Below, piece after piece: positions 22,162 to 58,430 of a DNA stretch of 64,000 nt. The notes beneath the pieces are model-generated. The model made no database searches, was not told the origin of the DNA, and was given only the letters and a program-made list of their open reading frames with translations. Source of the DNA: Candidatus Kerfeldbacteria bacterium (GTDB lineage Bacteria; Patescibacteriota; Patescibacteriia; UBA9570; XYC2-FULL-38-9); the NCBI GenBank assembly GCA_016182555.1, contig JACPGJ010000007.1, forward strand, positions 53-64,052, read 5' to 3'. Position 1 is the first letter of the stretch. Each line of letters opens with the position of its first letter. Both the position numbers and the translations under genes were made by a program.

Positions 22162-22241
22162 AATATATTATTATTTTACATGAAACTCCTTTTGGCAGCA
22201 AAGGTGTTTATCCTTTGCTGCCAAAAATCTGCTGAATTCTA

Positions 22242-22952: not shown

Positions 22953-23031
22953 AATTTCAAAGTCAGCATTGAAACCCCGAGGATATTATACACAAAAATA
23001 AGTACTAGTAATAGTGTGCGTAGGCAGAGAA

Positions 23032-24150: not shown

Positions 24151-24217
24151 TGTTCTGTAAAAAAATAAACCCCAATTTCTTATACATTAAAAGAAACGTA
24201 TTTGCAATATCAATAGA

Positions 24218-33589: not shown

Positions 33590-33970
33590 TTGCGTTAGAT
33601 TAATGATGAATGGCATTTGGTGCCTGCCCCGGTGTCGGCGACAAAACAGATGATTGACTATCAAGAACGCATTGCGGCAAAGCGCAAAAAAACCAGTGTG
33701 CCCTATTACGACGAATATGGCTCGCGCCTGGTTGCTATGCAGAAAAGTTTAAATAATACCATTTTGAATATTTGATAAGGAATTTATAGAAAAACAGACT
33801 TCTACTGATTTTTATTTTGGCTAATATTAGATAAATAATAACAGACTGTGCATAAAATTCATTGAAAAGTATGATGAAGTATGATAAATTAGATGAGCAA
33901 AAATTCGTTTTTTGAAAATTTTTTGGTTTTACCACCTAAGCCACCCAGCAAAGGTGGAAGGAGCAGACAA

Positions 33971-42889: not shown

Positions 42890-42915
42890 GGAAAATCTGC
42901 CTGAACATAGGCGGT

Positions 42916-45861: not shown

Positions 45862-46018
45862 GCTTTTATAGCGTAAAATATTGAAAAGTATAACGTTTTT
45901 TTGAAAAAAAAGCAAAAATAAAAGGTGTTTTGATTATCAAGCGCGAAGACACCTGAACGCGCGTTGCTGCAAGCGGCCGCTTCTTGCGCGGCCTCTGTGG
46001 CAGCAGCCGTGGAGCCGG

Positions 46019-46330
46019 TTAGAATACCTGGATAATTTTTCCGGATACTAACCGACATTTGTCGGCTGCCTGGACGATACGAAGCGCCTCTTCGGCGCTC
46101 CAAGCCAACGCATAGAGAGCGCTCAAGGGAGAGCCCTCTACTGGCGGAACCTCATAAAAGAGTCTCCACATGAGGTCGATGTCTATGCCGTCCAGCATCA
46201 GCACAACCGGCCTCTTGTCTAGCAGACGAGGTTTAGGACTTCGAAGAACCCCCTTCTCTTCTAGAAGCCTCACAAACCGCCGTATGGATATCCATGCGGC
46301 AATTTCATCGTCTAAAAATACAGCTATCAT
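46019..46330 (-). CDS. Hypothetical small protein (104 aa), GC-rich gene
   Basis: ATG 46330 is immediately preceded by AAAGGAGAAGG. The ORF-track N-extension to 46408 is probably not translated. Confidence 0.4.
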   Translation of the reverse strand: MIAVFLDDEIAAWISIRRFVRLLEEKGVLRSPKPRLLDKRPVVLMLDGIDIDLMWRLFYEVPPVEGSPLSALYALAWSAEEALRIVQAADKCRLVSGKIIQVF

Positions 46331-46442
46331 CCTTCTCCTTTCCCCGCTGCATGCGGGAAAAAAACATAAAGTGACCCGGCTACAACATCGATATTTATTC
46401 ATGAACAAGAAAAAAAGTCAAGCTACACCTGGAACCTCCAAT

Positions 46443-46757
46443 CTAAACCTTCCGCTGTGTTGCAGGAAGAGCGCGCAACAACGCTGCTGTAGTAATACCC
46501 GCGATATGCACCGTTTTGTAACGCGCAGCTTTTCCATGAGTCATCTGAATAGCAGCTGGTGAACAGTTCAATACTTCAGCTAAAAATTTGACCAGTGCTG
46601 CGTTTGCCCTACCTTCAAGCGCTGGAGCTGTCAGCTTTATTTTTAAACGGTTGGCCTGCACACCAACGACCTGGTTCCGTGATGAGTTGGGAACCACTCG
46701 GATATATAACAGCACTCCATTGGAAGCCGGAGCATAAAAAGTGTTTATGGCATGCAT
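46443..46757 (-). CDS. DUF167 / YggU-family protein
   Basis: LYIRVVPNSSRNQVVG ... LKIKLTAPALEGRANAAL.KFLAEVL. Confidence 0.75.
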   Translation of the reverse strand: MHAINTFYAPASNGVLLYIRVVPNSSRNQVVGVQANRLKIKLTAPALEGRANAALVKFLAEVLNCSPAAIQMTHGKAARYKTVHIAGITTAALLRALPATQRKV

Positions 46758-46761
46758 ATTT

Positions 46762-47385
46762 TTATCGAACCTGTTGAATGAATGCGATGTTACGCTGCTC
46801 GCGGTCGCCGCGGCGAAACGAATAGAGGCGCGGTGATTCTACCGTACAAACCCGCATGACTTCTATATTATTTTCGGGAATGCCCAGCTCCAAGCATTGG
46901 TTCACATTTGCTTGCCACAAGTCCAGATGAAAAATTCCCTCGCGGGTTTCAGATTCACGCACTACTGCGGGGTCAAACTGCCTTGCGACCTCTTCACCAA
47001 CCACAAAACAATTTGGGCAGATCGCCGGACCAATACCGACCTTCAACCCAAACGGTTTCATTTTTAAAAATTCAATTGATTTACGCGTGATGTCGAGCGC
47101 GGTTCCGCGCCACCCAGCGTGTACGGCACCTACCACACCAACGCGCGGTTCCGCAAACAAGACTGGCACGCAATCTGCCACGCGCACCGCCACACCAACT
47201 TTTTTTTGCCGCGTGACCAATGCATCCACACCACGAAGCTGCTGTTGCGCCGTATCTTCCACCCAAACGGTTTTATCTTTATGAACCTGTTCGCCAAATA
47301 CTAACCCCGTCGGCACCGCATCCCCTATTTCCGTAATACCATGCGTGATGTATGAACATTTTGCTAAGTTTGAAAATTGAAGCAT
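46762..47385 (-). CDS. pgeF: Peptidoglycan editing factor PgeF / YfiH (DUF152, laccase-domain)
   Basis: VADCVPVLF ... VHAGWRGT motifs. Confidence 0.85.
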   Translation of the reverse strand: MLQFSNLAKCSYITHGITEIGDAVPTGLVFGEQVHKDKTVWVEDTAQQQLRGVDALVTRQKKVGVAVRVADCVPVLFAEPRVGVVGAVHAGWRGTALDITRKSIEFLKMKPFGLKVGIGPAICPNCFVVGEEVARQFDPAVVRESETREGIFHLDLWQANVNQCLELGIPENNIEVMRVCTVESPRLYSFRRGDREQRNIAFIQQVR

Positions 47386-47393
47386 ACAATCTA

Positions 47394-48563
47394 CTATACA
47401 GCAGAATCTTCAATAACATCAAGGTAACAATCATAGGTTTCGCGGGCACAGTGCTTCCAAGAAAATTTGCGGGCGTGTGTGCGGCCAGCGGCACCAAGTT
47501 GTGCGCGCTTCACCGGGCTGCGCATAAGAGTGGCAATTCCTTGTTGAATAGAGAGAATATTCCGTGGGTTCACATACAACGCACCAGGCCCACCCACTTC
47601 CGGAAGCGAAGAAATTTTAGATGTCAACACCGGTATACCCATACTCGCCGCTTCCAACACCGGCAACCCAAACCCTTCCCATAATGACGGAAAAACAAAC
47701 GCGGTACACGATTGCATCAGCGCCATTTTTTCTTCATGGGTCACATAGCCAATGACGCGAACATTGCCAGACCAGCGAGCTCGCGAAATCGTTTGAAACA
47801 CTTGCTCGTACTTCCAGCCACGCGCACCAGCAATGACTAATTGGACATCACGAAAACGACGATGATGTTCATTCATAAACTGGTCAAATGCTTTCACCAA
47901 ACGTTCCAAATTTTTGCGTGGTTCAAGCGTGCCAATGAAAAATAAAAACTGTTCATTCACGCCAAACTGTGCACGAATTTCTGCACAACGAGCAGCTGGC
48001 AAACGTGGCTCACGAGTGACCCCTTCATAAATTAAGGCCATGCGCGAATCCGGTACACGAAATAACTGCGTAATCATTTTTTCTGTGGCGCGGGAAACCG
48101 CAATCACCTTCGCGGCTTTTCGTACCGACTGCGGCACCAGCACTTTTTGTGAAAAACCAGACTCTTCACGAAACCATTCCGGATGACGATAAATAGCCAA
48201 GTCATGAATCGTCACTACCGATGGCCGCGAATAACCGAGCGGTATACCATACGCCGGAGAATGAAAAATATCCAAACGTTGCCGCTCCAACACCTTCGCC
48301 ACAAAATAATGAGAATAGGCAAACGGAAGATAACGTTTATATTTGCTCAGCGGCAAACGTACCACTTGTACATTCGGCCGCGCTGTATATTCTTGTGTCA
48401 CCTCTTCTGGCATCTGGTGGTCTACAAACAACACAAATTCATCTTTTGCGGCAGGGTTGTATGCCAGCAGCGCCTTCACTAATTGCGTCGTGTAATGGCC
48501 CACTCCTGCGCGTTCTCCGGAAGCGGGATTCAGCATCGTTCGGCAATCTATTCCTATACGCAT
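47394..48563 (-). CDS. Glycosyltransferase family 4 (GT-B, GT1 clan)
   Basis: FPSLWEGFGLPVLEAASMGIPVLTS E-x7-E region. Confidence 0.85.
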   Translation of the reverse strand: MRIGIDCRTMLNPASGERAGVGHYTTQLVKALLAYNPAAKDEFVLFVDHQMPEEVTQEYTARPNVQVVRLPLSKYKRYLPFAYSHYFVAKVLERQRLDIFHSPAYGIPLGYSRPSVVTIHDLAIYRHPEWFREESGFSQKVLVPQSVRKAAKVIAVSRATEKMITQLFRVPDSRMALIYEGVTREPRLPAARCAEIRAQFGVNEQFLFFIGTLEPRKNLERLVKAFDQFMNEHHRRFRDVQLVIAGARGWKYEQVFQTISRARWSGNVRVIGYVTHEEKMALMQSCTAFVFPSLWEGFGLPVLEAASMGIPVLTSKISSLPEVGGPGALYVNPRNILSIQQGIATLMRSPVKRAQLGAAGRTHARKFSWKHCARETYDCYLDVIEDSAV

Positions 48564-48567
48564 ATCA

Positions 48568-50217
48568 TTACATTTTTTCTGGTGCGCTCACGCCCAACAG
48601 CTTCAACACGCTGTGCAACACGGTTTGAGTGGCCACCACCAGCGCATACCGCGTCACCTGCACTTCTCCATTATCAATCACCCGGCACTGGCCGTAAAAA
48701 TGGTGAAACGATCGCGCAAGATCTAAGGCATACGTGGGCAAGCGGTGCACTTCATACGTGCGGGCAATGTCTTTTAATAACTCTGGTAATACCATCAGCT
48801 CTTTCAACAACGCTTTTTCGGCAGCGTGTTCCACGAGCAACCCTTTCAGCGGCGGAGCGCCCAATTGCCCCACCTCTCGCAAAATACTGCACATTCGCGC
48901 ATGGGCGTACTGTACATAATAGACCGGGTTTTTGTCCGACTGTTCTTTTGCCAAGCCCAAATCAAAATTCATGTGGCTGTTGGCCGAATACAGTAAAAAG
49001 AAAAACCGCGCGGCGTCGTTACCGACTTCATCAATGAGTTCTTCAATCGTCACAAAATTTCCTTGCCGCTTACTCATACGCATCTCTTTGCCGTCGCGGA
49101 TCAACGTGACCATTTGCGTAAACAGAATATCGAATTCCGTATCAGCATTCAACAATTTCGGCACGGCTTTGAGGCGGTGCTCATAGCCGTGGTGATCTGC
49201 ACCCAAAATAAGCACCACTTTACGTACATGTCGGCGAAATGCCCGGTCATAAAACAGTGCTATATCGCCTTGCATATATGCACCATCTCCCGTGCTCTTC
49301 ACAATCACTCGGTCTTTGTCATCACCATACGCACTTGTCCGTACCCACAACGCGCCGTTCTGTTCGTACACATTTCCCGCTTCACGCAATTTCGCCAGCA
49401 TCTTCTCTGGTACGCCATCATCATACAACGATTTTTCAGAAAACCAGTTGTCATAATGAATTTGCATTTTTTCTTCAACCACACGTTTGATATCCGCAAT
49501 CATCAACCGCAATGCTAATACTGTTATGCGCTGCCGAATCCACTCGGCTTTTTTGCCGTGGTTCAACTTGTAATCTTTCAATGCGAGCTTTGTGGCGAGC
49601 TCACTAATATATTCACCTTGGTACAATTCGTCGGCATAATCCACCTTAATCCCTTGATTCTGCAAATAGCGCCGCATCACGGATTCGCCCAATACCTCCA
49701 CCTGCTTGCCGCGGTCATTCATATAATATTCACGCAGCACCGTAAAACCCGTGGCCGCCAGAATATTCGACAACACATCTCCCAAATATCCCCCGCGCCC
49801 ATTTGGCAGCGTGAGTGGCCCGGTGGGGTTAGCAGACAAAAATTCCACCAACACTTTTTTTCGTTTACCTATGCTGCTGCGACCATACGCTTCTTTCTTT
49901 CGCAGAATCTGTTTCAAGCTTTCGGCATACTGCTGCGTCGAAAGAAAAAAATTCAAAAAACCGGGTGGTGCCACTTGAATATCCGCATACGCACTATCAC
50001 CAGCGAGTAAATGCTGTTTCAATTCTTCCGCAATCATGAGTGGGGGTTTTTTCAGCACACGTGCCAGCTGCATCGCAATATTACTGGCAAAATCTCCGTG
50101 TTCAGGCAGTTCAGGCAAATCAATTGGCAATGGCGGAATATCAAAAACCGGCCAATCACCACTCTGTTGACGCGCAATAATAGCTTCTTGAATATCTTTC
50201 TGAATGCTATCCTTCAT
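48568..50217 (-). CDS. argS: Arginyl-tRNA synthetase
   Basis: FLSANPTGPLTLPNGRGG and MSKRQGNFVTIEELI. Confidence 0.9.
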   Translation of the reverse strand: MKDSIQKDIQEAIIARQQSGDWPVFDIPPLPIDLPELPEHGDFASNIAMQLARVLKKPPLMIAEELKQHLLAGDSAYADIQVAPPGFLNFFLSTQQYAESLKQILRKKEAYGRSSIGKRKKVLVEFLSANPTGPLTLPNGRGGYLGDVLSNILAATGFTVLREYYMNDRGKQVEVLGESVMRRYLQNQGIKVDYADELYQGEYISELATKLALKDYKLNHGKKAEWIRQRITVLALRLMIADIKRVVEEKMQIHYDNWFSEKSLYDDGVPEKMLAKLREAGNVYEQNGALWVRTSAYGDDKDRVIVKSTGDGAYMQGDIALFYDRAFRRHVRKVVLILGADHHGYEHRLKAVPKLLNADTEFDILFTQMVTLIRDGKEMRMSKRQGNFVTIEELIDEVGNDAARFFFLLYSANSHMNFDLGLAKEQSDKNPVYYVQYAHARMCSILREVGQLGAPPLKGLLVEHAAEKALLKELMVLPELLKDIARTYEVHRLPTYALDLARSFHHFYGQCRVIDNGEVQVTRYALVVATQTVLHSVLKLLGVSAPEKM

Positions 50218-50374
50218 TACAATAAATTAGCACAAAATATGAAAAAGACCAATCCACACCAATAAAAAAGGAGTTACCTCGGGGCGTCGAAAAAGAGGCA
50301 ACTCCTTCAATAGAAACGATAGATGAAAACAAAGAGTTTGTCAATAGAGTAAATCTCTCGTAGACTATCTCTAT

Positions 50375-50824
50375 ATGGAATCCATCGTGAACAAATATGC
50401 CCGGTCGAAATATGAAATGCTCGAGTCGTTCGAAGCGGGTTTAGTATTGACCGGCGCTGAAGTGAAGTCTGTGAAAAAAGGGGCAGTGAACCTGAAAAGC
50501 GCCTATATTGGCATTGAACAGGGTGAGTTATGGCTGAAAAACATGCATATTTCTCCGTATCAGCAAGCCAACCAGCCGGGCTATGAACCCGAACGCCCAC
50601 GAAAAATTCTGCTTCGCCGCAGCGAAATTGCGACACTCATGGGAAAATTGCAACAAGAAGGCTTGACATTGATACCAGAAAAAGTGTATAGTAAGCACGG
50701 TATTGTGAAAGTAAATGTCACGCTTGCTCGCGGTTTGAAATTGCATGATAAGCGTCAAAAAATAAAAAAACGGGATACCGAGCGCCAAATGCAACGCATG
50801 ATGAAGCAAAAAATGCATTCATAA
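50375..50824 (+). CDS. smpB: SsrA-binding protein
   Basis: YEMLESFEAGLVLTGAEVKS ... NMHISPY ... RKILLRRSEI. Confidence 0.9.
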   Translation: MESIVNKYARSKYEMLESFEAGLVLTGAEVKSVKKGAVNLKSAYIGIEQGELWLKNMHISPYQQANQPGYEPERPRKILLRRSEIATLMGKLQQEGLTLIPEKVYSKHGIVKVNVTLARGLKLHDKRQKIKKRDTERQMQRMMKQKMHS

Positions 50825-50890
50825 CCTTCACAAACACCGTTTTAACACCCGCTGGTAGCAGCTGCCTGAACCATTTCAGGGCTTCTATAT

Positions 50891-51284
50891 GGGGATGTTA
50901 AACGTTGATGGTCCATTTCAAAAACGAATTGCGTACTGAGTTTATAGTCTCATCAAAACTATCAAATTCTAAGTGCAAACTTAGTGAGCCGCGCAAAGAA
51001 CGCATTTGCCAACGCATTTGCTCCTTCTTTGAATGCGGTACCTGTTGTCGCTTAAATCCGACATCCGTCGCCTGAGTTGATGTCTCATAGGCTCTCTGCG
51101 GCGCAACTTCATGAGACTCACGTTGCCGAGGTGTTTGGCTCGGAAGCGAACATTTGAACAAACTGGGAGTTGCCGTGTTTGGCTCGCTTCAAGCGGCTGT
51201 TCCGAGAATATCAAGCGAGATACGTACGTAGAAATTCGTTCTTTGGGTGACCAGACGCGGGTGTGAGGCCCGCCATCTCCACCA
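50891..51284 (+). ncRNA. ssrA: tmRNA (ssrA), ~394 nt
   Basis: Immediately downstream of smpB. 5' GGGGAUG pairs with 3' CAUCUCC-ACCA; the G3:U wobble is the AlaRS identity pair. T-arm-like GCGGG-UGUGAGG-CCCGC. One candidate tag frame reads ...ANAFAPSLNAVPVVA then TAA at 51053-51055. Confidence 0.7.
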
Positions 51285-51354
51285 ATAATTGTGCCGGCTG
51301 CCGCGCTGCTGGCACTCCCCTCACAGCGTATTTAATCAGTAATTCTCTACACCC

Positions 51355-51873
51355 ATTTCAAACAAAGAATTTCGCAAGAACGAAGAGATTCGCTCGCCAC
51401 AGGTATTCGTGATTAGTGAACAAGGCGAGAAATTAGGCGTCATGTCTATTCAAAGCGCCCTCGATCTTGCACGCGAATCGTTCCTGGATCTTGTCGAAGT
51501 CGGGCCCCAAGCCACACCGCCGGTTGTCAAAATTGTCGATTTTGGCAAGTTACAATACGAGAAAGAGAAACAAGACCGAAAAAATCGCGCTCGATCCAAA
51601 AAAGGTGGCGAGATTAAAGGCATTCGTCTCACGGTGGCAATTAGCGAGCATGACATGAACGTACGTGTGGCATCTGCACAAAAATTTTTGGATAAAGGCG
51701 ATAAGATTAAAGTGGAAATGCGTATGCGTGGGCGTGAAAAAGCTCATCCAGAAGTCGCGCAGAAAACGATTCAGCGCTTTATTGATACACTGGGTCGCGA
51801 CACGGTGCTGGAACAACCGATTAAACGCATGGGCGGCCAGTTCACGGCAATGCTCACACTCAAGAAAAAATAA
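51355..51873 (+). CDS. infC: Translation initiation factor IF-3, probable AUU start
   Basis: Conserved KNEEIRSPQVFVISEQGEKLGVMS lies upstream of the ORF-track GTG (51409) in the same frame. The only start-like codon after in-frame TAA (51340-51342) is ATT at 51355. Confidence 0.8.
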   Translation: MSNKEFRKNEEIRSPQVFVISEQGEKLGVMSIQSALDLARESFLDLVEVGPQATPPVVKIVDFGKLQYEKEKQDRKNRARSKKGGEIKGIRLTVAISEHDMNVRVASAQKFLDKGDKIKVEMRMRGREKAHPEVAQKTIQRFIDTLGRDTVLEQPIKRMGGQFTAMLTLKKK

Positions 51874-51899
51874 TTGAATTTGTAGATATTAACGTATTT

Positions 51900-52106
51900 A
51901 TGCCAAAACGAAAGCACAAAACACATCAAGTCATCGCCAAACGTGTTCGGCGAACAAAGAACGGAAAACGGTCAGGAAAATTGATCATCCGCAAAGCCGG
52001 TCAAGACCATTTCAACGCTCGCGAAAGTGGGAAAACCACTCGCAACAAACGAAAAGATGGTACGGCATCGAAAACGATTACGAAAAATATTCAACGAGTA
52101 ATTTAA
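51900..52106 (+). CDS. rpmI: 50S ribosomal protein L35
   Basis: MPKRKHKTHQVIAKRVRRTKNGK. Confidence 0.9.
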   Translation: MPKRKHKTHQVIAKRVRRTKNGKRSGKLIIRKAGQDHFNARESGKTTRNKRKDGTASKTITKNIQRVI

Positions 52107-52125
52107 CGGCTACCAGAGCAAATAT

Positions 52126-52476
52126 ATGGCAAGAGTAAAACGAGGATCATCTCACACAAAACATCGCAGTGGTATTTTAAAACAAGCGAAAGGATACTAT
52201 GCTGGCCGCAAAAATTTAATTCGCCAGGCGAAAAACGCGGTACGCAAATCTGGCCAACGCGCATACGACCACCGCAAACAGAAGAAACGCACACGCCGCG
52301 CATTATGGCAAGTGAAGATTAACGCTGCTGCCCGCGCTGCAGGCATAAACTACAGCACATTCATGAACGCATTGACCAAGAAAAACATTTTGGTGGACCG
52401 CAAAATTCTGGCAACGCTGGCAGAACACCACCCCGCATTGTTTGATAAAATTGTTGCTGAAGTAAAAAAGAAATAG
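52126..52476 (+). CDS. rplT: 50S ribosomal protein L20
   Basis: MARVKRGSSHTKHR ... typical L20. Confidence 0.9.
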   Translation: MARVKRGSSHTKHRSGILKQAKGYYAGRKNLIRQAKNAVRKSGQRAYDHRKQKKRTRRALWQVKINAAARAAGINYSTFMNALTKKNILVDRKILATLAEHHPALFDKIVAEVKKK

Positions 52477-52493
52477 AGAATAGACAACCCATC

Positions 52494-52539
52494 GGCAATA
52501 CGATATACTCTGTGGTGCGTCATCGTATATCGTATTGCC
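52494..52539 (+). terminator. Perfect 14-15-bp hairpin (GGCAATACGATATA...TATATCGTATTGCC) between rplT and tRNA-Asp
   Basis: Seen directly. Only a short TTT follows. Terminator or processing structure. Confidence 0.4.
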
Positions 52540-52545
52540 CCATTT

Positions 52546-52619
52546 GGGGGTGTAGCTCAGTTGGTTAGAGCGCTTCCCTGTCACGGAAGAGGCCGCGGGT
52601 TCGAGTCCCGTCACTCCCG
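52546..52619 (+). tRNA. tRNA-Asp (anticodon GTC)
   Basis: Cloverleaf: acceptor GGGGGUG/CACUCCC with G73, U8-A9, D-arm GCUCAGUUGGUUAGAGC, anticodon stem CUUCC/GGAAG, loop CUGUCAC, T-arm GCGGG-UUCGAGU-CCCGU. CCA not encoded. Confidence 0.9.
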
Positions 52620-52650
52620 CAAACGGAACCTTGTTCGAACGAAAAAAGAA
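52611..52650 (+). repeat. attL-like direct repeat: tRNA-Asp 3' end plus downstream flank (core CTCCCGCAAACGGAA)
   Basis: Copied imperfectly at 57411-57450: 15-nt identical core and about 36 of 42 positions overall. Confidence 0.6.
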
Positions 52651-52737
52651 AGCCGCTAGTCATAACGATTTTTCTTGTTGGAAAGACAAAGCAACATTAC
52701 TCTATTCAAAACAGAGTGATTTAGGTATTATAGGATT

Positions 52738-53002
52738 ATGACTTTTACTGAAAAAGAAAATATTATTAAACAAGCAGCTAAGCAGTATACTCGAGAGCAT
52801 AAGAAAGAATTTTATGAAAAAGTTGTTATCAAAAATATTTTCCCAGAAAGAAACAAAAACAGATCCGTTTTCAGATTTTTTTAGAAACACAGATTCTCGT
52901 CACAAAACCAAAGTATTAAAAAAAGTGGCAAGAAAGGCAAATGAAGATCAGCGAAAATTAATAGAAAAAAATCATCGCTTATCTGGCGATTCTGCAATAT
53001 AA
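52738..53002 (+). pseudogene. Two overlapping small ORFs (48 and 62 aa) just 3' of tRNA-Asp; possibly one frameshifted gene
   Basis: ORF 52738..52884 and ORF 52814..53002 are in different frames and overlap by about 70 nt. Confidence 0.25.
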
Positions 53003-53163
53003 TATTGGTGTTGCAATACATCCACTCAGAGAACGAAATATATTATTGATTATCATGTTCAAATAAAGACATATTCCTAGAATAATATGCATATTTAAAG
53101 TAAAAAAAGATCCGCCTATTGCCTCCACAATAGACGGATTTTATTACGTGAAAATGTGCGCTC

Positions 53164-53652
53164 TCACTTGCGGTCAAGCTCAATAATTGCTCGAGCGACC
53201 GCTTTGACAGCCGCATTGAGTGCGGCGCCTGTTTGCCCCACAGCGAGGAATGACCGGAGAAAGGACATCCCTCTCCCTATATCCTCCGCCGCACACGATC
53301 GCGTGTACGCCTGCTCTTTCCAGAGGAGAAAGTAGGCAAGATTTCCTCCTTCTCCTTTGTACTCTCCTGCTTTCGCCTTTCGCGCGGCAGCGGTCATGAG
53401 TGCTTCGAGGGACATCCGTGCTTCGCCCTCGAGCCTGAGCGTGTCTTCCAACACGAGCAGTCCGTTCCACATGACACTCCGCTTCTCTTGAGGCAGCCCA
53501 GCGAGGATCTGCTCTTTAGTGATCACAGCAAGCAACTTTTCTCGCCCATCACTTTCTTTCCTCACCTGTTCCGCAATTTCTGCAGGCGTCCCTTGATATG
53601 CCTGCCACACGTTCAAATCACCAGTCTCAACCGTACACTGAATCTGAAACAT
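53164..53652 (-). CDS. Hypothetical protein (162 aa), GC-rich, in the tRNA-Asp island
   Basis: ORF with clearly elevated GC. No recognisable motif. Confidence 0.45.
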   Translation of the reverse strand: MFQIQCTVETGDLNVWQAYQGTPAEIAEQVRKESDGREKLLAVITKEQILAGLPQEKRSVMWNGLLVLEDTLRLEGEARMSLEALMTAAARKAKAGEYKGEGGNLAYFLLWKEQAYTRSCAAEDIGRGMSFLRSFLAVGQTGAALNAAVKAVARAIIELDRK

Positions 53653-53836
53653 ATTTTCTCCTCCTTCTTCGAATTCCTCTTCGTAAGGTTTCCGCCAGCG
53701 AGACCACCCCGCCTACGCTACCTGCCAAAAATTAATTGCCTATTTTAGAATTCTGTAATGCACCCACCAGAGGATGGTGAACGACTTCCCGGTTACCATG
53801 TGAACACCGGGCATTTGGTAGGGACGAAAGGCTAAA

Positions 53837-54388
53837 CTAGAGATATCGTCTTGGAATCCAGTCGTCCTTTACGAATTCTCGACTTCCTTTCGGAAGCAGA
53901 ATTTCATAATCGAACTCGGAATCCATGTAAGAGAACACTGTCGGTTTTTCACCAACAATTATCTCTTCGTGGCCGATACGCTGCTTCCCTTTTGGAAAAG
54001 CAAAGTACCGTTCGATGGTACCGCCATGGTTGTGGTTGGTTATATCGAATACCACCAAACCATGGGTTGATGGAATACGACGAGCTGCAGCTTGCACTTC
54101 AGAAGGAATCTCCTCATCGAGAGTAACAGCTTCCTTTTTCCCCTCAGTCACGAACAGCTGTACGAGCTTGTCCACGTCTTTGGGAAGATTGCAAGTTCTT
54201 CGGCATTTCCCGTCACATTTCCCTTCCACCCTGTACCTGTGCTGGCGGTGCCCAGCATAGAGGTCGTGTGCGATGTGGACATTTCCCACACAGATGTATT
54301 CCACCACGAGAGCGGACTCACCACGCTCCGTCTCATATTCCCTCTCATAGACGAAACCACGGATTGCAGTAATCTTCGAGGTCTTCAT
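53837..54388 (-). CDS. Hypothetical protein (183 aa), GC-rich, His/Cys-rich segment VHIAHDLYAGHRQHRY...GKCDGKC..C
   Basis: ORF with elevated GC. Possible metal-binding cluster. No family assigned. Confidence 0.45.
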   Translation of the reverse strand: MKTSKITAIRGFVYEREYETERGESALVVEYICVGNVHIAHDLYAGHRQHRYRVEGKCDGKCRRTCNLPKDVDKLVQLFVTEGKKEAVTLDEEIPSEVQAAARRIPSTHGLVVFDITNHNHGGTIERYFAFPKGKQRIGHEEIIVGEKPTVFSYMDSEFDYEILLPKGSREFVKDDWIPRRYL

Positions 54389-54589
54389 AGCGTCCTCCTT
54401 CAGTTGTCAAATTTCTTTCTTCAATGTCGAGCTCATCCCGTCACTGAAGAACTGGATATAGTATCCCAAATGCGTAAAAAAGTGAATACAAGTTATTTCA
54501 AAATTTATACATTTTTATTTTATATTTGATTTATTTATAAAAAAATGATATAATTTAAATTGACAAAATAATCAAAAACATTCAAATTT

Positions 54590-55339
54590 ATGAATATCCA
54601 CAAACGTTTACAAAGCATTGGCCTGACTCAATCAGAAACCGACATCTACCTCTTTCTCCTCCAAAATAGCCTTTCCTCTCCCCCTGTCATTGCAAAAGGC
54701 ACCGGAATTGCCCGCACCAATTGCTATCACATTCTCCAAAGTCTCAAAGAAAAACAATTGATATCCGAACAATCCATCTCAAAAGGAAAACGCAAAGCCT
54801 ATGTTGCTTGCGATCCACAGGCGCTCATCGAATCAATGAACCGAAAAACTGCAGCAGCGCAAGAATTGCTTCCTGATCTAAGAGCCCTATATACCGTACA
54901 AAAAAATAAACCGCTTATCCGATTCTTTGATGGATTTGAAGAGGTAAAGCAGATCTATGATCAATCGCTCACAGCAAAAAAAATTATGGGAATTGGTTCA
55001 ACAAAGCGCTTACAAGAACTCGATCCGCAATTCTATACGCATTATCTAAAACAAGTGCAAAAAAAAGGAATTGTATTTTATGATATTCTTTCACATCCAT
55101 CTGGCGAACATGCCGGCCCACACATGAAACAAATTGTGAAAGGATTATATGATATGAAACTAATCCCAAAGCAGTATGGCGATTTTGCAACAGATATATT
55201 AATTTGGGAAGATACAATCGCTCTCCTTACACTCGAAGAACCCATTTTTGGCACTACACTCACCAATCCTCTTCTTGCCAACACATTTTTGCTTCTCTTT
55301 AAAGTGTTCTGGGAACAATTGTCGAATTTTGATAATTGA
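54590..55339 (+). CDS. TrmB-family transcriptional regulator
   Basis: N-terminal wHTH LTQSETDIYLFLLQNS...IAKGTGIARTNCYHILQSLKEKQLI. TTGACA about 30 nt upstream. Confidence 0.65.
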   Translation: MNIHKRLQSIGLTQSETDIYLFLLQNSLSSPPVIAKGTGIARTNCYHILQSLKEKQLISEQSISKGKRKAYVACDPQALIESMNRKTAAAQELLPDLRALYTVQKNKPLIRFFDGFEEVKQIYDQSLTAKKIMGIGSTKRLQELDPQFYTHYLKQVQKKGIVFYDILSHPSGEHAGPHMKQIVKGLYDMKLIPKQYGDFATDILIWEDTIALLTLEEPIFGTTLTNPLLANTFLLLFKVFWEQLSNFDN

Positions 55340-55479
55340 TTTTTATGGTAATGAGAAGGAAGGCAGCGGTTGCTTCCCCCGCGCCAACAATGCCTTCCTT
55401 TCCTTCACTCATTTCGCAATTTTTCTATATAACACATTCGAGCAGCAGATAATAAGTTCCGAAAATTTCGGAAAGAAAA

Positions 55480-55549
55480 ATATAGTGTAAACAGGGTGGG
55501 GTTAATCTATGTTCATTTGAGGCACCACCCCTTACACACTATATTTTTT
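55480..55549. terminator. Bidirectional terminator-like long hairpin (ATATAGTGT..GGGTGG / CCACCC..ACACTATAT), A-run before and T6 after, between convergent TrmB genes
   Basis: Inverted repeat and flanking runs seen directly. Confidence 0.5.
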
Positions 55550-55637
55550 GTAACACCCATCTCATCTGTCCTATTGCTAATAAAGTGCTAGATTCAGGTG
55601 TTTAGCTTGAGTTTCATAGCTTTATAAAATTATCTTC

Positions 55638-56432
55638 TTATTTTTGCAATCGCTTACGAATATCTTGATCAAATTTTTCTGAATATTCAAAGGCGAATTC
55701 AAACATTTTTTGTAAGCAATCGGCTATGGGTTTACTTTTAATGACAAGTGCGAAATTTTCTTCGTAAGAAAAAAATATCACCGTGTGCTTATATACATTC
55801 ACTTCAATAGGATAATTACATTCGGCAGGAATAAGTCTAGAATGACGAATATGTTTCTGTTCTGTTTCAAGAGTATGTTGAATATTAAATAGTGTCGCAG
55901 GAATAATAGCTTTCACAGAAATTTTCTTTGCAACACGTTTTTTATAATAATCGGGATATAGGGATGGTAAATATTTCAATTCATCTTCATTACTTCCATA
56001 CCCAATAATGTGATCTGCTTCTTCCAATACTTGTAAAAACGCTTTCTTCATTCCTTCTTTTCCTTCATAGTAATACATTTTCGGTTTTACGGTTTCATAT
56101 TGCTGCATGGCGCGCAATTCTGGCAGCGCTGACTGAATTTTTTGTTCTTGATCTTTCAGTTGTTGCTGACGCTGTTGCACAAAACGGAGAATTTCAGTTG
56201 GATCATCAACAGAAAAGAGATACGTATTTTTTCTTTTCATGCGCTTCACAATATGAAACTCATTACTCAATTTCTGTAGCGCAAGTAATACAGTTGTTTT
56301 AGGAATTTCTAATCTTCGCGCTATTTCTGACGCCTTCTGTGGACTTTTTTTAAGCAATTGTATATAGCAGTGTATTTCCAACTCATCGAGTCCGATATTT
56401 TGTAGAAGGTTGGAAATTGATTGTTCTTTCAT
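55638..56432 (-). CDS. TrmB-family transcriptional regulator (second copy)
   Basis: wHTH LDELEIHCYIQLLKKSPQKASEIARRLEIPKTTVLLALQKL. Confidence 0.65.
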   Translation of the reverse strand: MKEQSISNLLQNIGLDELEIHCYIQLLKKSPQKASEIARRLEIPKTTVLLALQKLSNEFHIVKRMKRKNTYLFSVDDPTEILRFVQQRQQQLKDQEQKIQSALPELRAMQQYETVKPKMYYYEGKEGMKKAFLQVLEEADHIIGYGSNEDELKYLPSLYPDYYKKRVAKKISVKAIIPATLFNIQHTLETEQKHIRHSRLIPAECNYPIEVNVYKHTVIFFSYEENFALVIKSKPIADCLQKMFEFAFEYSEKFDQDIRKRLQK

Positions 56433-56573
56433 ATATCGTCAAAAATTGTTGATGTTTTTTTATCTTTCTTTAGCAAAAATAATGAATATAAATATAAAAT
56501 AAATATACATTATTGTTACCCTATACAGTTATAGTATGTTTGTAAAGCACCTATACAATTCGTGGGGTAACAT

Positions 56574-56795
56574 ATGACATTCCACACTCTTCTTCTTGCA
56601 TTGCTCTATGGTTTTGGTATCACATTCATCAGCTATCCATTGAACGCATGGGAGTACAAATGTCCACGAAGAAAAGCTCTATTCTTTTGTGTAGGAGTAA
56701 TTCTACTGGGTATATATCTGTATTACGATACAATTTCTATACCCGCGCAAACTGATAAACCGCATAAGAAAGGAAATGTACAATGTCAGGAATAA
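56574..56795 (+). CDS. Small membrane protein (73 aa)
   Basis: Two hydrophobic helices. ORF only. Confidence 0.35.
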   Translation: MTFHTLLLALLYGFGITFISYPLNAWEYKCPRRKALFFCVGVILLGIYLYYDTISIPAQTDKPHKKGNVQCQE

Positions 56796-57229
56796 CATTC
56801 CTCATCATTATGTGTGTATATGCCATACACATTGGGATCGCACTCAAGGTTGCAGAGTACATGCGCAAACACCAAACTCCGGAAGGCGCAAAAGAATGGT
56901 CAGTATTTAGCATCATGGGAGCGTTTGGGATAATTGTTCTGTTAGCTCCCAGCGATTCACCTTATTCAGCTCTCTGGCAAATGGATATAGGCGATATCGC
57001 GCTTATCGCATTCTCCGTAACCTATGCGATGATGTATCTTGGTTGGGGCATGATGCAGTGGCATCTCTACAAGATGAACAAATTGTGGAGAGCTCGTTTC
57101 AAACGGAGCATCTTTCTGAGTATCAGTGTCGGACTATTCCTTATATCTGGACTATACACCACCGCACTGCTCAAAAATGCTCCTCACTACTCTCCACCCA
57201 AAAAAGTATGTACTTGTGATTGTTCATAA
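56783..57229 (+). CDS. Small membrane protein (148 aa, 4 TM)
   Basis: Hydrophobic helices. Overlaps the previous ORF by 13 nt. Confidence 0.4.
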   Translation: MSGITFLIIMCVYAIHIGIALKVAEYMRKHQTPEGAKEWSVFSIMGAFGIIVLLAPSDSPYSALWQMDIGDIALIAFSVTYAMMYLGWGMMQWHLYKMNKLWRARFKRSIFLSISVGLFLISGLYTTALLKNAPHYSPPKKVCTCDCS

Positions 57230-57320
57230 GTAGTGATGAAATGGTTCGGCAGTACCAGTTGCGTTGAGAGCTTAGGAGGAGCTTTCCGCACAAAACTGCC
57301 TTTTTTATTTTAAACAGGAT

Positions 57321-57352
57321 GAAAGATATAGTGTGAAGGGGGTGGGGTTAAT
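57321..57352. repeat. Second copy of GAAAGA-ATAGTGT-GGG-GTGGGGTTAAT motif (first copy at 55471-55506)
   Basis: About 27 of 32 positions shared. Sits about 60 bp before the attR-like repeat. Confidence 0.45.
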
Positions 57353-57410
57353 ACAAAAAACTAGACTCCCATTTATTAATATTCTCCACCCAAAATGTTC
57401 AAACAGCGTT

Positions 57411-57450
57411 CACTTGCTCCCGCAAACGGAATATTATTCGAACAAAACAT
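57411..57450 (+). repeat. attR-like direct repeat of the tRNA-Asp 3' end/flank
   Basis: CACTTGCTCCCGCAAACGGAATATTATTCGAACAAAACAT versus tRNA-flank TCACTCCCGCAAACGGAACCTTGTTCGAACGAAAAAAG. Confidence 0.6.
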
Positions 57451-57509
57451 GAAACATACGCTATCTTTTTGACAATGAAGCTATTTTTAGGTATCTTCTA
57501 TATATTCAT

Positions 57510-57689
57510 ATGTCAAAAAAAGATATCGTAAAAGCTTTACAGAAGTATCAAAAATCTCGTCCGAATAGCACCCTGCGACGCAATTATTTGCGTTCATTCA
57601 CACCGAAGATGATTTATCGTACAACAAAAACAGAAAATCCAACCACAACAAAGGCATTAGTGAAAAAAATCTTAGATCAACTCTCATAA
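57510..57689 (+). CDS. Small ORF (59 aa) upstream of fic; candidate FicA-like antitoxin
   Basis: TTKTEN matches the inhibitory [ST]xxxE[GN] motif. Ends 3 nt before the fic ATG. Below the ORF-track size cutoff. Confidence 0.45.
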   Translation: MSKKDIVKALQKYQKSRPNSTLRRNYLRSFTPKMIYRTTKTENPTTTKALVKKILDQLS

Positions 57690-57692
57690 GGT

Positions 57693-58310
57693 ATGCCAAA
57701 AGGCAGGGGTGAAACGAGTTATAAAGATACTGCTTTTGGCATCATTCCTCGTTCAAAACTCATTCCATTAGAAATAGAGGGTATTAAACGTGTCTGGGAT
57801 TTTGTTTTACAGAAACGCCAACAATCTAAAATTCCACTTACTCCAGAATTTCTCAAAAAAATTCATCACGTGGGTTTTGCATGGATATTTCCAGAGATAG
57901 GAGGAAAATTTAGAACTATTGATGTTGAAGTCTCTTTACATACTCCTCCGAAATTTTATCTTGTACCCCAACTCATGAAAGATTTTTGTAATGACTTAAA
58001 AGAACGACTGAAGCATCTTCCATCTATTCAAGAAGAAAACTATCTTGATGAATTAAGTGAATTACTGGCATGGACGCATCACCGATTCCTGTGGATTCAT
58101 CCATTTGCAGATTATAATGGTCGTATTGGTCGTTTGTTAATAAACATTGTGTTATTGAACTTAGATTTGCCAACGATTGAACTACAAGTAGAAACTCCAG
58201 CTGCAAGAAAACGCTATGTGAAAGCGCTACAGGCTGCTGACGAGTATAATCTTGCGCCATTGAAAAAAATAATTGAAAAAGCAATTGAAGAAGCTGTTAA
58301 AGAAATTTAG
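57693..58310 (+). CDS. fic: Fic/Doc-family protein (AMPylator-type)
   Basis: Fic motif HPFADYNGRIGR (HPFx[DE]GNGRxxR). Confidence 0.85.
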   Translation: MPKGRGETSYKDTAFGIIPRSKLIPLEIEGIKRVWDFVLQKRQQSKIPLTPEFLKKIHHVGFAWIFPEIGGKFRTIDVEVSLHTPPKFYLVPQLMKDFCNDLKERLKHLPSIQEENYLDELSELLAWTHHRFLWIHPFADYNGRIGRLLINIVLLNLDLPTIELQVETPAARKRYVKALQAADEYNLAPLKKIIEKAIEEAVKEI

Positions 58311-58430
58311 CCCAGGGTTTAATCATTAAAACCAAAAAACTAAATTCCCACGGATTACCATGCTGCATCCAAAAAGTTCGAAAAACGGAGTACTTGCCAC
58401 GCCACTGCTTCAATTCTAACTTCTTGCGCG

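What the first reader, a model, noticed from the sequence alone, without database searches (positions are those of the whole stretch)
52546..57450. About 4.8 kb remnant integrative island in the 3' end of tRNA-Asp, bounded by a direct repeat of the tRNA end
The last nucleotides of tRNA-Asp plus about 30 nt of its 3' flank (52611-52650) recur at 57411-57450. The two copies share a 15-nt identical core (CTCCCGCAAACGGAA at 52614-52628 and 57417-57431) and about 36 of 42 positions overall. That is the classic attL/attR signature of a site-specific integration into a tRNA gene. The enclosed segment is compositionally heterogeneous: an AT-rich stretch directly after the tRNA, two strongly GC-rich genes, then two TrmB regulators and small membrane proteins. 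No integrase or excisionase is present, so it looks like a decayed island, or one mobilised in trans. A Fic toxin module sits immediately outside attR.
Basis: partly seen in the sequence, partly recalled or inferred. Interest (0 to 1): 0.85.

Follow-up and report, generated by a model that had tools for sequence, protein, structure and literature searches.

The report
Repeat-bounded gene islet beside tRNA-Asp
A 4.8-kb block of accessory genes next to a tRNA-Asp gene in an uncultivated (CPR/Patescibacteria) bacterium is flanked by a real, non-chance 38-base direct repeat. It is probably the dead remnant of an inserted element, but it has no recombinase gene and no related genome exists to prove it, so it is a fairly ordinary and only partly provable finding.

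Summary
The repeat is real. 52614-52651 and 57417-57454 match at 32 of 38 positions, with a 15-nt exact core. It scores 26, against a maximum of 18-20 in shuffled windows. Only the last 6-7 nt of tRNA-Asp lie inside it; the rest is trailer.

The enclosed 4.8 kb holds two regulator-plus-divergent-operon units: TrmB1 with two orphan proteins, and TrmB2 with two small membrane proteins. No integrase, excisionase, transposase or remnant of one occurs in the island or anywhere in the 64-kb window.

Composition is uneven but no more so than elsewhere in the window, and there is no sharp break.

The organism is a Kerfeldbacteria MAG with no close relative in public data (best L20 match 68%), so the empty-site test cannot be done. 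No integrase-bearing version of the island was found.

Displaced tRNA-Asp fragments in other bacteria carry at least 22 nt of the tRNA; this one carries 6-7.

The stretch 57321-57454 is a mosaic of the window's three best non-coding repeats. One of them also flanks the Fic toxin module. This hints at serial insertions.

Verdict: a plausible decayed, CIME-like islet at a tRNA 3' end (about 0.45).

The parts
52546..52620 (+). tRNA-Asp (GTC), intact. No encoded CCA. Discriminator G at 52619.
   Evidence: ARAGORN; Rfam RF00005 at 72.4 bits; sequence read.
52614..52651 (+). Direct repeat copy 1 (candidate attL). It covers the last 6-7 nt of the tRNA plus 31 nt of trailer. The 15-nt exact core is 52614-52628.
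   Evidence: the repeat finder family D2; diagonal scan score 26 against a shuffle maximum of 18-20; 32/38 identity.
52652..53109 (.). AT-rich spacer (GC about 0.32) holding only short overlapping ORFs (48 and 62 aa). No integrase remnant.
   Evidence: Composition; all stop-to-stop segments of 30 aa or more scanned against Pfam at E<=1 gave nothing relevant; no family hits.
53110..53139 (-). Intrinsic terminator of the g183-g162 operon (13-bp stem plus T run).
   Evidence: scan_promoters_terminators.
53164..53652 (-). g162: a 162-aa soluble orphan protein, GC 0.55 (GC1 0.63, GC2 0.44, GC3 0.57, a coding-like pattern).
   Evidence: The only hit among 5.8 billion proteins is itself, NCBI HYV32_02720, Candidatus Kerfeldbacteria; no Pfam, PHROG, NCBIfam or PADLOC match; codon-position GC.
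53837..54388 (-). g183: a 183-aa protein whose C-terminal 85 aa belong to a small uncharacterised family. Conserved motifs are SH..G..Y..R.FAV and D.N.DY.F.LP.GS.EFV.G.WVP.
54590..55339 (+). TrmB-family regulator 1 (249 aa), divergent from g183-g162.
   Evidence: Pfam PF01978 at 5.6e-11.
55476..55548 (.). Hairpin H1: a bidirectional terminator between the convergent TrmB genes. Its 5' arm (55475-55506) recurs at 57321-57352.
   Evidence: Inverted repeat I4 and direct repeat D3; RNA fold -26.6 kcal/mol, z = -3.96; D3 score 24.
55638..56432 (-). TrmB-family regulator 2 (264 aa), divergent from m73-m148. It is only 25% identical to TrmB1, so they are old paralogs.
   Evidence: Pfam PF01978 at 7.3e-12; BLASTP 25% identity.
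56574..56795 (+). m73: a 73-aa protein with two hydrophobic segments.
   Evidence: ORF list; Kyte-Doolittle scan; no family match.
56783..57229 (+). m148: a 148-aa protein with at least three hydrophobic segments.
   Evidence: ORF list; Kyte-Doolittle scan; only a sub-threshold MASE4 hit.
57249..57311 (+). Terminator of m148 (stem GGCAGT...ACTGCC plus T run). The Logan contigs L004 and L003 meet here (57277-57304).
   Evidence: RNA fold z = -2.5; contig mapping.
57321..57408 (+). Left part of junction B. It holds D3 copy 2 (57321-57352, similar to 55475-55506) and D1 copy 1 (57354-57408, similar to 58333-58387).
   Evidence: (scores 24 and 27). It is not a structured RNA (z about 0) and gives no tRNA-like hit.
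57417..57454 (+). Direct repeat copy 2 (candidate attR). It lies just upstream of the a59-Fic promoter (TTGACA-17-TATCTT, 57469-57497).
57510..58310 (+). Fic module, outside the repeat-bounded segment. The 59-aa ORF (57510-57689) carries TTKTEN, which fits (S/T)xxxE(G/N). Three nt later the 205-aa Fic protein begins (57693-58310), with motif HPFADYNGRIGR.
   Evidence: Pfam Fic at 2.7e-16; PADLOC PDC-S04 at 6e-26; closest solved structure FICD; motif definitions from PMC3667792; motifs read directly from the translation.
58333..58387 (+). D1 copy 2 (junction C), between Fic and the convergent 384-aa secreted protein. It keeps only 4/15 of the core at the aligned position.
   Evidence: the repeat finder D1; score 27; alignments.

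Best explanation
The 4.8 kb between the repeat copies is accessory DNA. It was once inserted by site-specific recombination at the extreme 3' end of tRNA-Asp. It is now an immobile, recombinase-less remnant, comparable to a cis-mobilizable element (CIME).

Proposed mechanism (inferred):
- A circular element carried an attP that copied the last few bases of the tRNA plus its trailer.
- It recombined with the chromosomal site inside the 15-bp identity CTCCCGCAAACGGAA.
- The element-borne copy now completes the tRNA and supplies its trailer (52614-52651).
- The original chromosomal trailer was displaced 4.8 kb downstream (57417-57454), directly upstream of the promoter of the Fic module.
- The recombinase gene was later lost, or was never carried (mobilisation in trans).

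The cargo is two self-contained regulatory units: TrmB1 with the divergent g183-g162 operon, and TrmB2 with the divergent m73-m148 membrane-protein operon.

Shown: the repeat, its significance, its position at the tRNA end, the gene content, and the absence of a recombinase. Inferred: the recombination event, its direction and the foreign origin.
For: - The repeat is far above chance: score 26 against a shuffle maximum of 18-20.
- Its left edge falls 6-7 nt inside the only tRNA gene of the window, in the same orientation and on the 3' side. The Islander criteria require exactly this configuration (PMC4383910).
- It has an identical 15-nt block followed by a diverged 23 nt (17/23). All mismatches lie on one side, P about 0.04. 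A crossover core plus non-identical arms would look like this.
- The repeat is not part of a larger gene duplication. The ORFs that follow the two copies are unrelated, and the local alignment does not extend.
- It is not a terminator or a structured RNA.
- The enclosed genes are orphan or accessory: g162 has no homolog at all and g183 only weak ones.
- Nothing right of rplT is syntenic in any relative, whereas 10 kb to the left is conserved.
- The same tRNA-Asp sequence is a frequent integration target in other bacteria. 7 of 83 occurrences in JGI contigs are displaced fragments, including a decayed 5.8-kb island, L149.
- Recombinase-less att-flanked remnants (CIMEs) are a described outcome of island decay (PMC5704250).
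Against: - No integrase, excisionase or fragment of one is present in the island, in the AT-rich tRNA-proximal stretch, or anywhere in the 64-kb window plus 4 kb.
- Only 6-7 nt of the tRNA are repeated. A tRNA-only BLAST finds no fragment, and gapped extension into the tRNA is not significant (P about 0.2-0.3).
- Known crossover subsites are the anticodon loop, the T loop, or the T/acceptor junction (PMC4383910). Every displaced fragment of this tRNA-Asp seen in JGI contigs starts there, although that scan could only detect fragments of 22 nt or more.
- There is no sharp compositional break.
- No related element, attP or integrase-bearing version was found anywhere.
- No empty site is available.
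- The independent Logan assembly breaks at 57277-57304, not at the repeat. It therefore gives no hint of an island-free variant.
Confidence: 0.45

Rival explanations
1. Local sequence turnover without site-specific integration. The region right of rplT/tRNA-Asp is a hotspot of gene gain and loss. The three local repeats (DR_A, D1, D3) are leftovers of segmental duplications of intergenic DNA (trailers and terminators), made by illegitimate or short-homology recombination while genes were shuffled in. That one edge lies at the tRNA end only reflects that the tRNA is the last conserved feature before the variable zone.
For: - All three top non-coding repeats of the window are confined to 52.6-58.4 kb, and all touch 57321-57454.
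- D3 is plainly a copied half of a terminator hairpin.
- In relative L050, one gene is flanked by direct copies of the tRNA-Asp trailer hairpin with no tRNA bases and no integrase.
- There is no recombinase and no compositional break.
- The tRNA overlap is only 6-7 nt.
- Synteny in relatives ends at rplT, far to the left of any att-defined boundary.
Against: - The mismatch pattern (15 identical, then 17/23) is not what uniform decay of a duplication predicts (P about 0.04).
- The coincidence of a repeat edge with the tRNA 3' end is improbable for an arbitrary duplication: roughly 20 nt out of 64,000 per repeat end.
- The interiors of the putative duplicated units share nothing.
Confidence: 0.3
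2. Tandem accretion of two related elements. A (tRNA end, 52614-52651) is attL of the newer 4.8-kb element. B (57354-57454) is an attP-like hybrid, made of the P arm of the newer element, the core, and the P' arm of the older one. C (58333-58404) is the decayed attR of an older element, of which only the a59-Fic toxin module survives.
For: - B matches C on its left part (55 nt at 75%, score 27, continuing to ACTTGC at 57411-57416 and 58390-58395).
- B matches A on its right part (score 26).
- The change of partner falls exactly at the left edge of the 15-nt core.
- Tandem arrays built from decayed elements are a described pattern (PMC5704250; PMC4383910).
- Fic modules are typical addiction or defence cargo (PADLOC PDC-S04).
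Against: - Copy C retains only 4/15 of the core and about 40% identity over the next 35 nt. An extra deletion or decay step is therefore needed.
- No integrase accompanies either unit. Islander accepts tandems only when each member has its own integrase and fragment.
- D1 could be an ordinary duplicated intergenic segment.
Confidence: 0.12
3. Chance similarity, or an assembly artefact at a widely shared tRNA sequence.
For: - The 3' 22 nt of this tRNA-Asp occur in at least 120 JGI contigs from many organisms.
- Both Logan assemblies break inside the tRNA, and no single Logan contig spans 52574-52582.
- In a 540 x 540-nt comparison, a gapped local alignment score of 52 was reached or exceeded by at least one of 200 simple shuffles (maximum 56).
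Against: - The window-wide diagonal scan puts the repeat 6 or more points above every shuffle maximum.
- The tRNA 3' half, copy 1 and the whole island lie on one independent contig, L004 (52582-57304). That contig overlaps L003, which carries copy 2, and both are 100% identical to the window.
- The tetranucleotide signature is the same on both flanks.
Confidence: 0.05

Closest known systems
tDNA-integrated genomic islands as defined by Islander (tyrosine-integrase islands in tRNA/tmRNA genes; PMC4383910)
   Same: - An intact tRNA at one end.
- A direct repeat reaching into the tRNA 3' end, on the downstream side and in the same orientation.
- A size (4.8 kb) within the 2-200 kb range.
- Accessory or orphan cargo.
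   Different: - No integrase gene or remnant.
- The repeated tRNA part is 6-7 nt. It starts at acceptor position 68 rather than at the anticodon loop, T loop or T/acceptor junction.
- A tRNA-only BLAST does not find it.
- The repeat is mostly trailer.
Cis-mobilizable elements (CIMEs) and tandem accretion of decayed ICE/IME remnants (Pavlovic 2004 and Bellanger 2011, as reviewed in PMC5704250)
   Same: - A repeat-flanked segment that lacks integration and transfer genes.
- A possible attP-like hybrid junction, with a second repeat-flanked module (Fic) next to it.
   Different: - CIMEs are recognised through a related functional ICE/IME with the same att sites. No such partner, nor any conjugation system, is known for this lineage.
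- att function is not shown here.
Decayed tRNA-Asp island in JGI contig Ga0157376_10010222 (locus L149)
   Same: - The same tRNA-Asp 3' sequence.
- A similar size (5.8 kb).
- Decayed, with miscellaneous cargo.
   Different: - L149 has a 52-nt exact repeat that starts in the anticodon stem.
- It has a truncated tyrosine-integrase ORF next to the tRNA, plus a resolvase fragment. The window's locus has neither.
Class I Fic toxin-antitoxin modules (VbhA/VbhT, FicTA; PMC3667792). This applies to the neighbouring module only.
   Same: - A small upstream ORF with (S/T)xxxE(G/N), here TTKTEN.
- The Fic-domain protein starts 3 nt after that ORF ends.
   Different: - The Fic signature reads HPFADYNGRIGR, with Tyr in place of the first Gly of GNG.
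- The closest solved relatives are class II FICD proteins.
- Toxicity and neutralisation are untested.

Membership tests
tDNA-integrated genomic island (Islander criteria, PMC4383910) | Full-length tRNA/tmRNA gene at one end. | tested here: met
   tRNA-Asp at 52546-52620 (ARAGORN; Rfam 72 bits).
tDNA-integrated genomic island (Islander criteria, PMC4383910) | Displaced 3' fragment of the same tDNA, downstream, in the same orientation, detectable with the tDNA as query. | tested here: inconclusive
   A same-orientation downstream repeat exists, but only 6-7 nt of it are tDNA. BLAST with the tRNA alone does not find it. Extension into the tRNA is not significant. No tRNA-like hit at E<=10.
tDNA-integrated genomic island (Islander criteria, PMC4383910) | Tyrosine integrase gene inside or overlapping the island. 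| tested here: not met
   No Phage_integrase or any recombinase hit in the island ORFs, in six-frame pieces of the AT-rich stretch, or in the major ORFs scanned across the rest of the window; the 42.4-52.6 kb stretch is covered only by precomputed gene tables.
tDNA-integrated genomic island (Islander criteria, PMC4383910) | Crossover at the anticodon loop, T loop or T/acceptor-stem junction. | tested here: not met
   The identity block begins at acceptor position 68 (52614) and runs into the trailer. Fragments of the same tRNA-Asp in JGI contigs begin at the anticodon loop or T arm.
tDNA-integrated genomic island (Islander criteria, PMC4383910) | Length of 2-200 kb. | tested here: met
   4803 nt between the repeat starts.
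Genomic island in general | Absent from closely related genomes (empty site). | not testable with these tools
   The best L20 relative is 68% identical. GTDB relatives reach at most 60%. The syntenic relatives L127 and L129 lack tRNA-Asp here and have no homolog of island or right-flank genes. The core pattern is absent from JGI metagenomes.
Genomic island in general | Composition distinct from the host genome. | tested here: inconclusive
   Gene GC ranges from 0.34 to 0.55 inside the island, against a window mean of 0.436 (sd 0.056, range 0.27-0.58). Tetranucleotide z is at most 1.4, against 3.1 and 3.8 at two other places.
Cis-mobilizable element (CIME; PMC5704250) | [quoted passage not shown] | tested here: met
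   None are present.
Cis-mobilizable element (CIME; PMC5704250) | Retains functional attL and attR related to those of a known ICE/IME. | not testable with these tools
   A repeat is present, but no partner element with this core exists in IMG/VR (chance hits only), phages or plasmids, or JGI. Recombination competence would need an experiment.
Class I Fic toxin-antitoxin (neighbouring module) | Fic signature HxFx(D/E)GNGRxxR. | tested here: not met
   The sequence reads HPFADYNGRIGR, with G replaced by Y at the first Gly (translation; definition from PMC3667792). The Fic domain itself is clear (Pfam 2.7e-16).
Class I Fic toxin-antitoxin (neighbouring module) | Separate small upstream protein carrying (S/T)xxxE(G/N). 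| tested here: met
   The 59-aa ORF has T38-T-K-T-E42-N43 and stops 3 nt before the Fic start. It has no sequence match to any solved antitoxin.

The most novel reading that the evidence does not exclude
The locus is a small accretion array at the 3' extremity of tRNA-Asp in a CPR bacterium. At least two successive insertions by a related, now absent, recombinase would target the acceptor-end/trailer boundary. That sublocation lies outside the three known tDNA crossover sites. They would have left attL (52614-52651), an attP-like hybrid (57354-57454) and a decayed attR (58333-58404). The Fic toxin-antitoxin pair would be the surviving cargo of the older element. This would document integrase-independent, trans-mobilised or fossil cassettes in a phylum where integrative elements are barely described.
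Probability: 0.12. Interest if true: 0.5.

Novelty: new member of a known kind. Interest (0 to 1): 0.25.

Why it matters
If the reading is right, this is a fossil integration at a tRNA gene in Kerfeldbacteria (CPR), a lineage with almost no characterised mobile elements. It would also show an unusually 3'-terminal crossover site.

In practice it marks a variable accessory locus: two TrmB-controlled units of unknown function plus a Fic module. It also illustrates the limits of att-based island calling when only a few tRNA bases are repeated and no relatives exist. It does not open a new question by itself.

Tried and rejected
**Searches for an empty site**
- GTDB species genomes via L20: 80 loci, best 60% identity. 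None shares any island or right-flank gene.
- The 5.8-billion-protein search: best L20 match 68%.
- The syntenic relatives L124, L127 and L129 have no tRNA-Asp after rplT and no homologs.
- Exact-protein look-ups of RplT, TrmB1, m148, a59 and Fic returned only the same three Logan contigs.

**Searches for an attP or a full-length element**
- The 15-mer in IMG/VR gave 39 hits, all chance.
- The core plus TTCGAAC pattern in JGI metagenomes gave 0 hits.
- Island DNA against phage and plasmid collections gave no match.
- Fic, TrmB1 and TrmB2 in viral contigs gave none.

**Longer tRNA fragment at copy 2**
- Rfam at E<=10 found no tRNA-like hit.
- Anchored gapped extension gave P about 0.2-0.3, so this was rejected.
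- A 10-nt tRNA match at 54436-54445 does not extend and is chance.

**Repeat as terminator, structured RNA or part of a duplicated gene**
- Folding z-scores are about 0.
- The downstream ORFs are unrelated.

**Other ideas**
- A GTTCRAAM motif as a recombinase site: not enriched (14 observed, 16 expected).
- Transposon or casposon-like target duplication: no terminal inverted repeats inside the direct repeats, and the repeat extends beyond 15 nt.
- Function of the cargo: g162 has no homolog. g183 gives a confident C-terminal beta domain with no structural neighbour. PADLOC and PHROGs found nothing for the island genes.
- The Logan contig break at 57277-57304 was considered as evidence of strain variation. 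It was rejected because it lies in the m148 terminator, not at the repeat.

Full report
**Observation**

The window carries one tRNA gene, tRNA-Asp(GTC). ARAGORN places it at 52546-52620 and Rfam at 52546-52619. It lies downstream of smpB, tmRNA (50891-51284, found by Rfam only), infC, rpmI and rplT.

The reported repeat is real. The core CTCCCGCAAACGGAA occurs exactly at 52614-52628 and 57417-57431 and nowhere else in the window. The ungapped match is 52614-52651 versus 57417-57454, at 32/38 positions.

Three corrections are needed:
- Identity over 42 positions is 33, not 36.
- Only CTCCCG(C), the last 6-7 nt of the tRNA, is part of the repeat. The rest is 3' trailer.

**Significance**

I scanned every diagonal of the 64-kb window with +1/-1 ungapped scoring.
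- Eight block-shuffled windows that preserve local composition gave maxima of 18-20.
- The real window gave, apart from coding repeats at 976-2107, three outliers:
  - D1, score 27: 57354-57408 and 58333-58387.
  - The reported repeat, score 26.
  - D3, score 24: 55475-55506 and 57321-57352.

All three touch the 134-nt stretch 57321-57454. The repeat is therefore not chance. It is also not alone.

The six mismatches of the reported repeat all lie in its 3' 23 nt (P about 0.04). It is an identical core plus a diverged arm.

**What lies between the copies**

- An AT-rich 0.5 kb with only short overlapping ORFs and no Pfam signal, even at E<=1.
- An operon g183-g162 on the minus strand with its own strong terminator. 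TrmB1 is transcribed divergently from it.
- A strong bidirectional hairpin terminator, H1 (z = -4).
- TrmB2 on the minus strand, with m73-m148 divergent from it. Both are small membrane proteins.

The two TrmB proteins are only 25% identical. g162 has no homolog among 5.8 billion proteins other than itself. That self-hit names the source: Candidatus Kerfeldbacteria, HYV32_02720, on a 293-kb contig.

g183 belongs to a small uncharacterised family through its C-terminal 85 residues.
- The predicted domain is confident but has no structural neighbour.
- The neighbourhood of one homolog is not mobile.
- No PHROG, NCBIfam or PADLOC assignment exists for any island gene.

No integrase, excisionase, transposase or fragment of one is present in the island. 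None appears among the major ORFs I scanned across the window, nor in the precomputed gene tables that cover 42.4-52.6 kb and the next 4 kb.

**Composition**

Gene GC in this window ranges from 0.27 to 0.58 (mean 0.436, sd 0.056). The island genes range from 0.34 to 0.55.

Tetranucleotide distance in 2-kb windows peaks at z = 1.4 in the island. It reaches 3.1 at 21-25 kb and 3.8 at 34-36 kb, where ordinary genes lie. The heterogeneity is real but not distinctive, and there is no step at either repeat copy.

**Relatives**

The closest L20 in GTDB species genomes is 60% identical, from Magasanikbacteria-type MAGs. In the 5.8-billion-protein collection it is 68%.

Several relatives share the left flank in detail: IleRS, Cu-oxidase_4, GT4, ArgRS, SmpB, IF3, L35 and L20. 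After rplT they have a large unrelated gene and no tRNA-Asp. They have no homolog of any island or right-flank gene.

Many Magasanikbacteria loci do have tRNA-Asp within 0.1-3 kb of rplT but share nothing further. Synteny simply ends at rplT.

Independent Logan assemblies reproduce the window at 100% identity as three contigs: 42434-52574, 52582-57304 and 57277 onward.
- The first break is inside the tRNA. Its 3' 22-mer is shared by at least 120 JGI contigs from many organisms, so a graph branch there is expected.
- The second break is in the m148 terminator, not at the repeat. It gives no evidence for an island-free variant.
- Further exact-protein look-ups returned no alternative arrangement.

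**Search for a mobile version**

- The 15-mer gives only chance hits in IMG/VR.
- The core plus TTCGAAC pattern is absent from JGI metagenomes.
- The island has no DNA match in phage or plasmid collections.
- Fic, TrmB1 and TrmB2 have no close relatives in viral contigs.

**Comparison with real tRNA-Asp att sites**

The JGI scan of the tRNA 3' 22-mer gave 83 occurrences in the 80 loci fetched. Seven of them are displaced fragments whose similarity to the tRNA starts at the anticodon loop or the T arm. This agrees with the three crossover subsites listed by Islander (PMC4383910). The scan could only detect fragments of at least 22 nt.

One case, L149, is a decayed 5.8-kb island. It has a 52-nt exact repeat, a truncated tyrosine integrase next to the tRNA, and a resolvase fragment.

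The window's locus differs on both counts. A BLAST with the tRNA alone finds no fragment. Gapped extension of copy 2 into the tRNA is not significant, and Rfam sees no tRNA-like remnant. By Islander's filters the locus would be rejected at the integrase step, and probably never nominated.

**What the repeat is not**

- It is not part of a duplicated gene: the ORFs after the two copies are unrelated.
- It is not a terminator or a stable RNA structure (z about 0).
- It is not a member of a motif family enriched in the window.
- It has no terminal inverted repeats inside it, as a transposon or casposon would.
- Copy 2 sits just upstream of a good promoter for the a59-Fic pair.

**The mosaic junction**

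I call the three junctions A, B and C.
- A is the tRNA end plus trailer (52614-52651).
- B is 57354-57454.
- C is 58333-58404.

B matches C on its left part (75% over 55 nt, continuing to ACTTGC). B matches A on its right part. The change of partner falls exactly at the left edge of the 15-nt core.

This is the pattern expected if two related elements had inserted one after the other. A would be attL, B an attP-like hybrid and C attR. The a59-Fic module would be the cargo of the older one, as in described accretions of decayed elements (PMC5704250).

The weakness is that C keeps only 4/15 of the core. An extra decay or deletion step is therefore needed, and neither unit has an integrase. I rate this refinement at about 0.12.

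**Best explanation and rivals**

- Most likely (0.45): the 4.8 kb is a fossil of a site-specific insertion at the extreme 3' end of tRNA-Asp. It is now recombinase-less and immobile (CIME-like), and carries two TrmB-controlled units of unknown function.
- Main rival (0.30): local duplication of intergenic sequence during gene turnover in a variable zone that starts at rplT/tRNA-Asp. Three points support it: the co-location of three local repeats, a copied terminator half (D3), and relative L050, in which one gene is flanked by copies of the tRNA trailer hairpin alone.
- Chance or misassembly: unlikely (0.05).

**Neighbouring Fic module**

- The 59-aa ORF carries TTKTEN, which fits the (S/T)xxxE(G/N) inhibitory motif. 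It ends 3 nt before the Fic gene, a class I arrangement (PMC3667792).
- The Fic signature reads HPFADYNGRIGR and so deviates from GNG.
- The closest solved relatives are class II FICD proteins.
- The protein matches the PADLOC candidate defence family PDC-S04 at 6e-26.

**Verdict**

- It is a new member of a known kind at best.
- Interest is low to moderate.

Noticed in passing
window 57321-57454, with partners 55475-55506 and 58333-58387: The three best non-coding direct repeats of the whole window all meet in one 134-nt stretch. The a59-Fic module is itself flanked by a 55-nt, 75% direct repeat (score 27, against a shuffle maximum of 18-20).
   Followed up: partly
window 57510-58310: A class I-like Fic pair. 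The 59-aa ORF carries TTKTEN, which fits (S/T)xxxE(G/N), and the Fic gene starts 3 nt later. The Fic signature HPFADYNGRIGR departs from the canonical GNG. The best PADLOC match is the candidate defence family PDC-S04 (6e-26), and the closest solved structures are FICD.
   Followed up: partly
loci L044 (11748-11811 and 12205-12275), L059 (about 10765-10880 and 11020-11190), L082, L075: In Magasanikbacteria-type relatives, tRNA-Asp is flanked on both sides by pieces of a tRNA-Asp-like gene. In these pieces the anticodon arm is replaced by a 7-bp stem with a 3-nt loop (TCCCGAC-TSA-GTCGGGA). The upstream piece runs from the 5' end to the T loop, and the downstream piece from the D loop to the 3' end. 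The L059 copies carry a T-loop insert with compensatory changes. The element is not in Rfam and is not called by ARAGORN. It could be a split pseudo-tRNA or a new tRNA-like RNA.
   Followed up: partly
loci L049 (record strand -, about 180 nt after tRNA-Asp) and L057 (13444-13640): A GC-rich stretch of about 150 nt follows tRNA-Asp. It ends in a 15-23-nt copy of the tRNA-Asp 3' end followed by a terminator. In L049 it begins with the reverse complement of another tRNA's 3' end. These look like att scars.
   Followed up: no
locus L050, 12828-14060: The terminator hairpin right after tRNA-Asp is repeated 1.2 kb downstream, after a single asparaginase-like gene. This is a one-gene cassette flanked by direct copies of the tRNA trailer, with no tRNA bases in the repeat.
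   Followed up: no
window 52546-52620 compared with relatives: This genome's tRNA-Asp (acceptor GGGGGTG/CACTCCC) is almost identical to a tRNA-Asp found in at least 120 JGI contigs from many bacteria. The Magasanikbacteria-type relatives use a different acceptor stem (GGACCGG/CCGGTCC).
   Followed up: no
locus L149 (JGI Ga0157376_10010222); also L211 and L141: L149 is a decayed 5.8-kb tRNA-Asp island with a 52-nt exact repeat, a truncated integrase and a resolvase fragment. L211 has a T-arm fragment 179 nt after the tRNA, which looks like a scar. L141 has two tandem tRNA-Asp genes.
   Followed up: partly
window 50891-51284: The tmRNA gene after smpB is found by Rfam (86.8 bits) but missed by ARAGORN, both here and in the closest relatives.
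   Followed up: no
window 52626-52636 and 57429-57439: Two of the differences between the repeat copies are compensatory in a 4-bp hairpin (GAAC-CTT-GTTC versus GAAT-ATT-ATTC). The hairpin is too weak to count as a structure, and it rests on a single pair of copies.
   Followed up: no
window 976-2107: Three to four tandem, diverged coding repeats of about 90 nt (65-69% identity) in ORFs with no Pfam match. They are the strongest direct repeats in the window.
   Followed up: no
window 20500-25000 and 33893-35713: These are the strongest compositional outliers of the window. The first is an AT-rich block (GC 0.31-0.34) with an aminotransferase gene of GC 0.27 and two 7TM histidine-kinase genes. 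The second is an alpha-amylase-family gene of GC 0.58. Both deviate more than the island does.
   Followed up: no
window 52574-52592 and 57277-57304: Logan assemblies of SRR12113422 and SRR12113419 break at these points, so the island is a stand-alone 4723-nt contig there. The first break is explained by the widely shared tRNA sequence. The second lies in the m148 terminator and is unexplained.
   Followed up: partly
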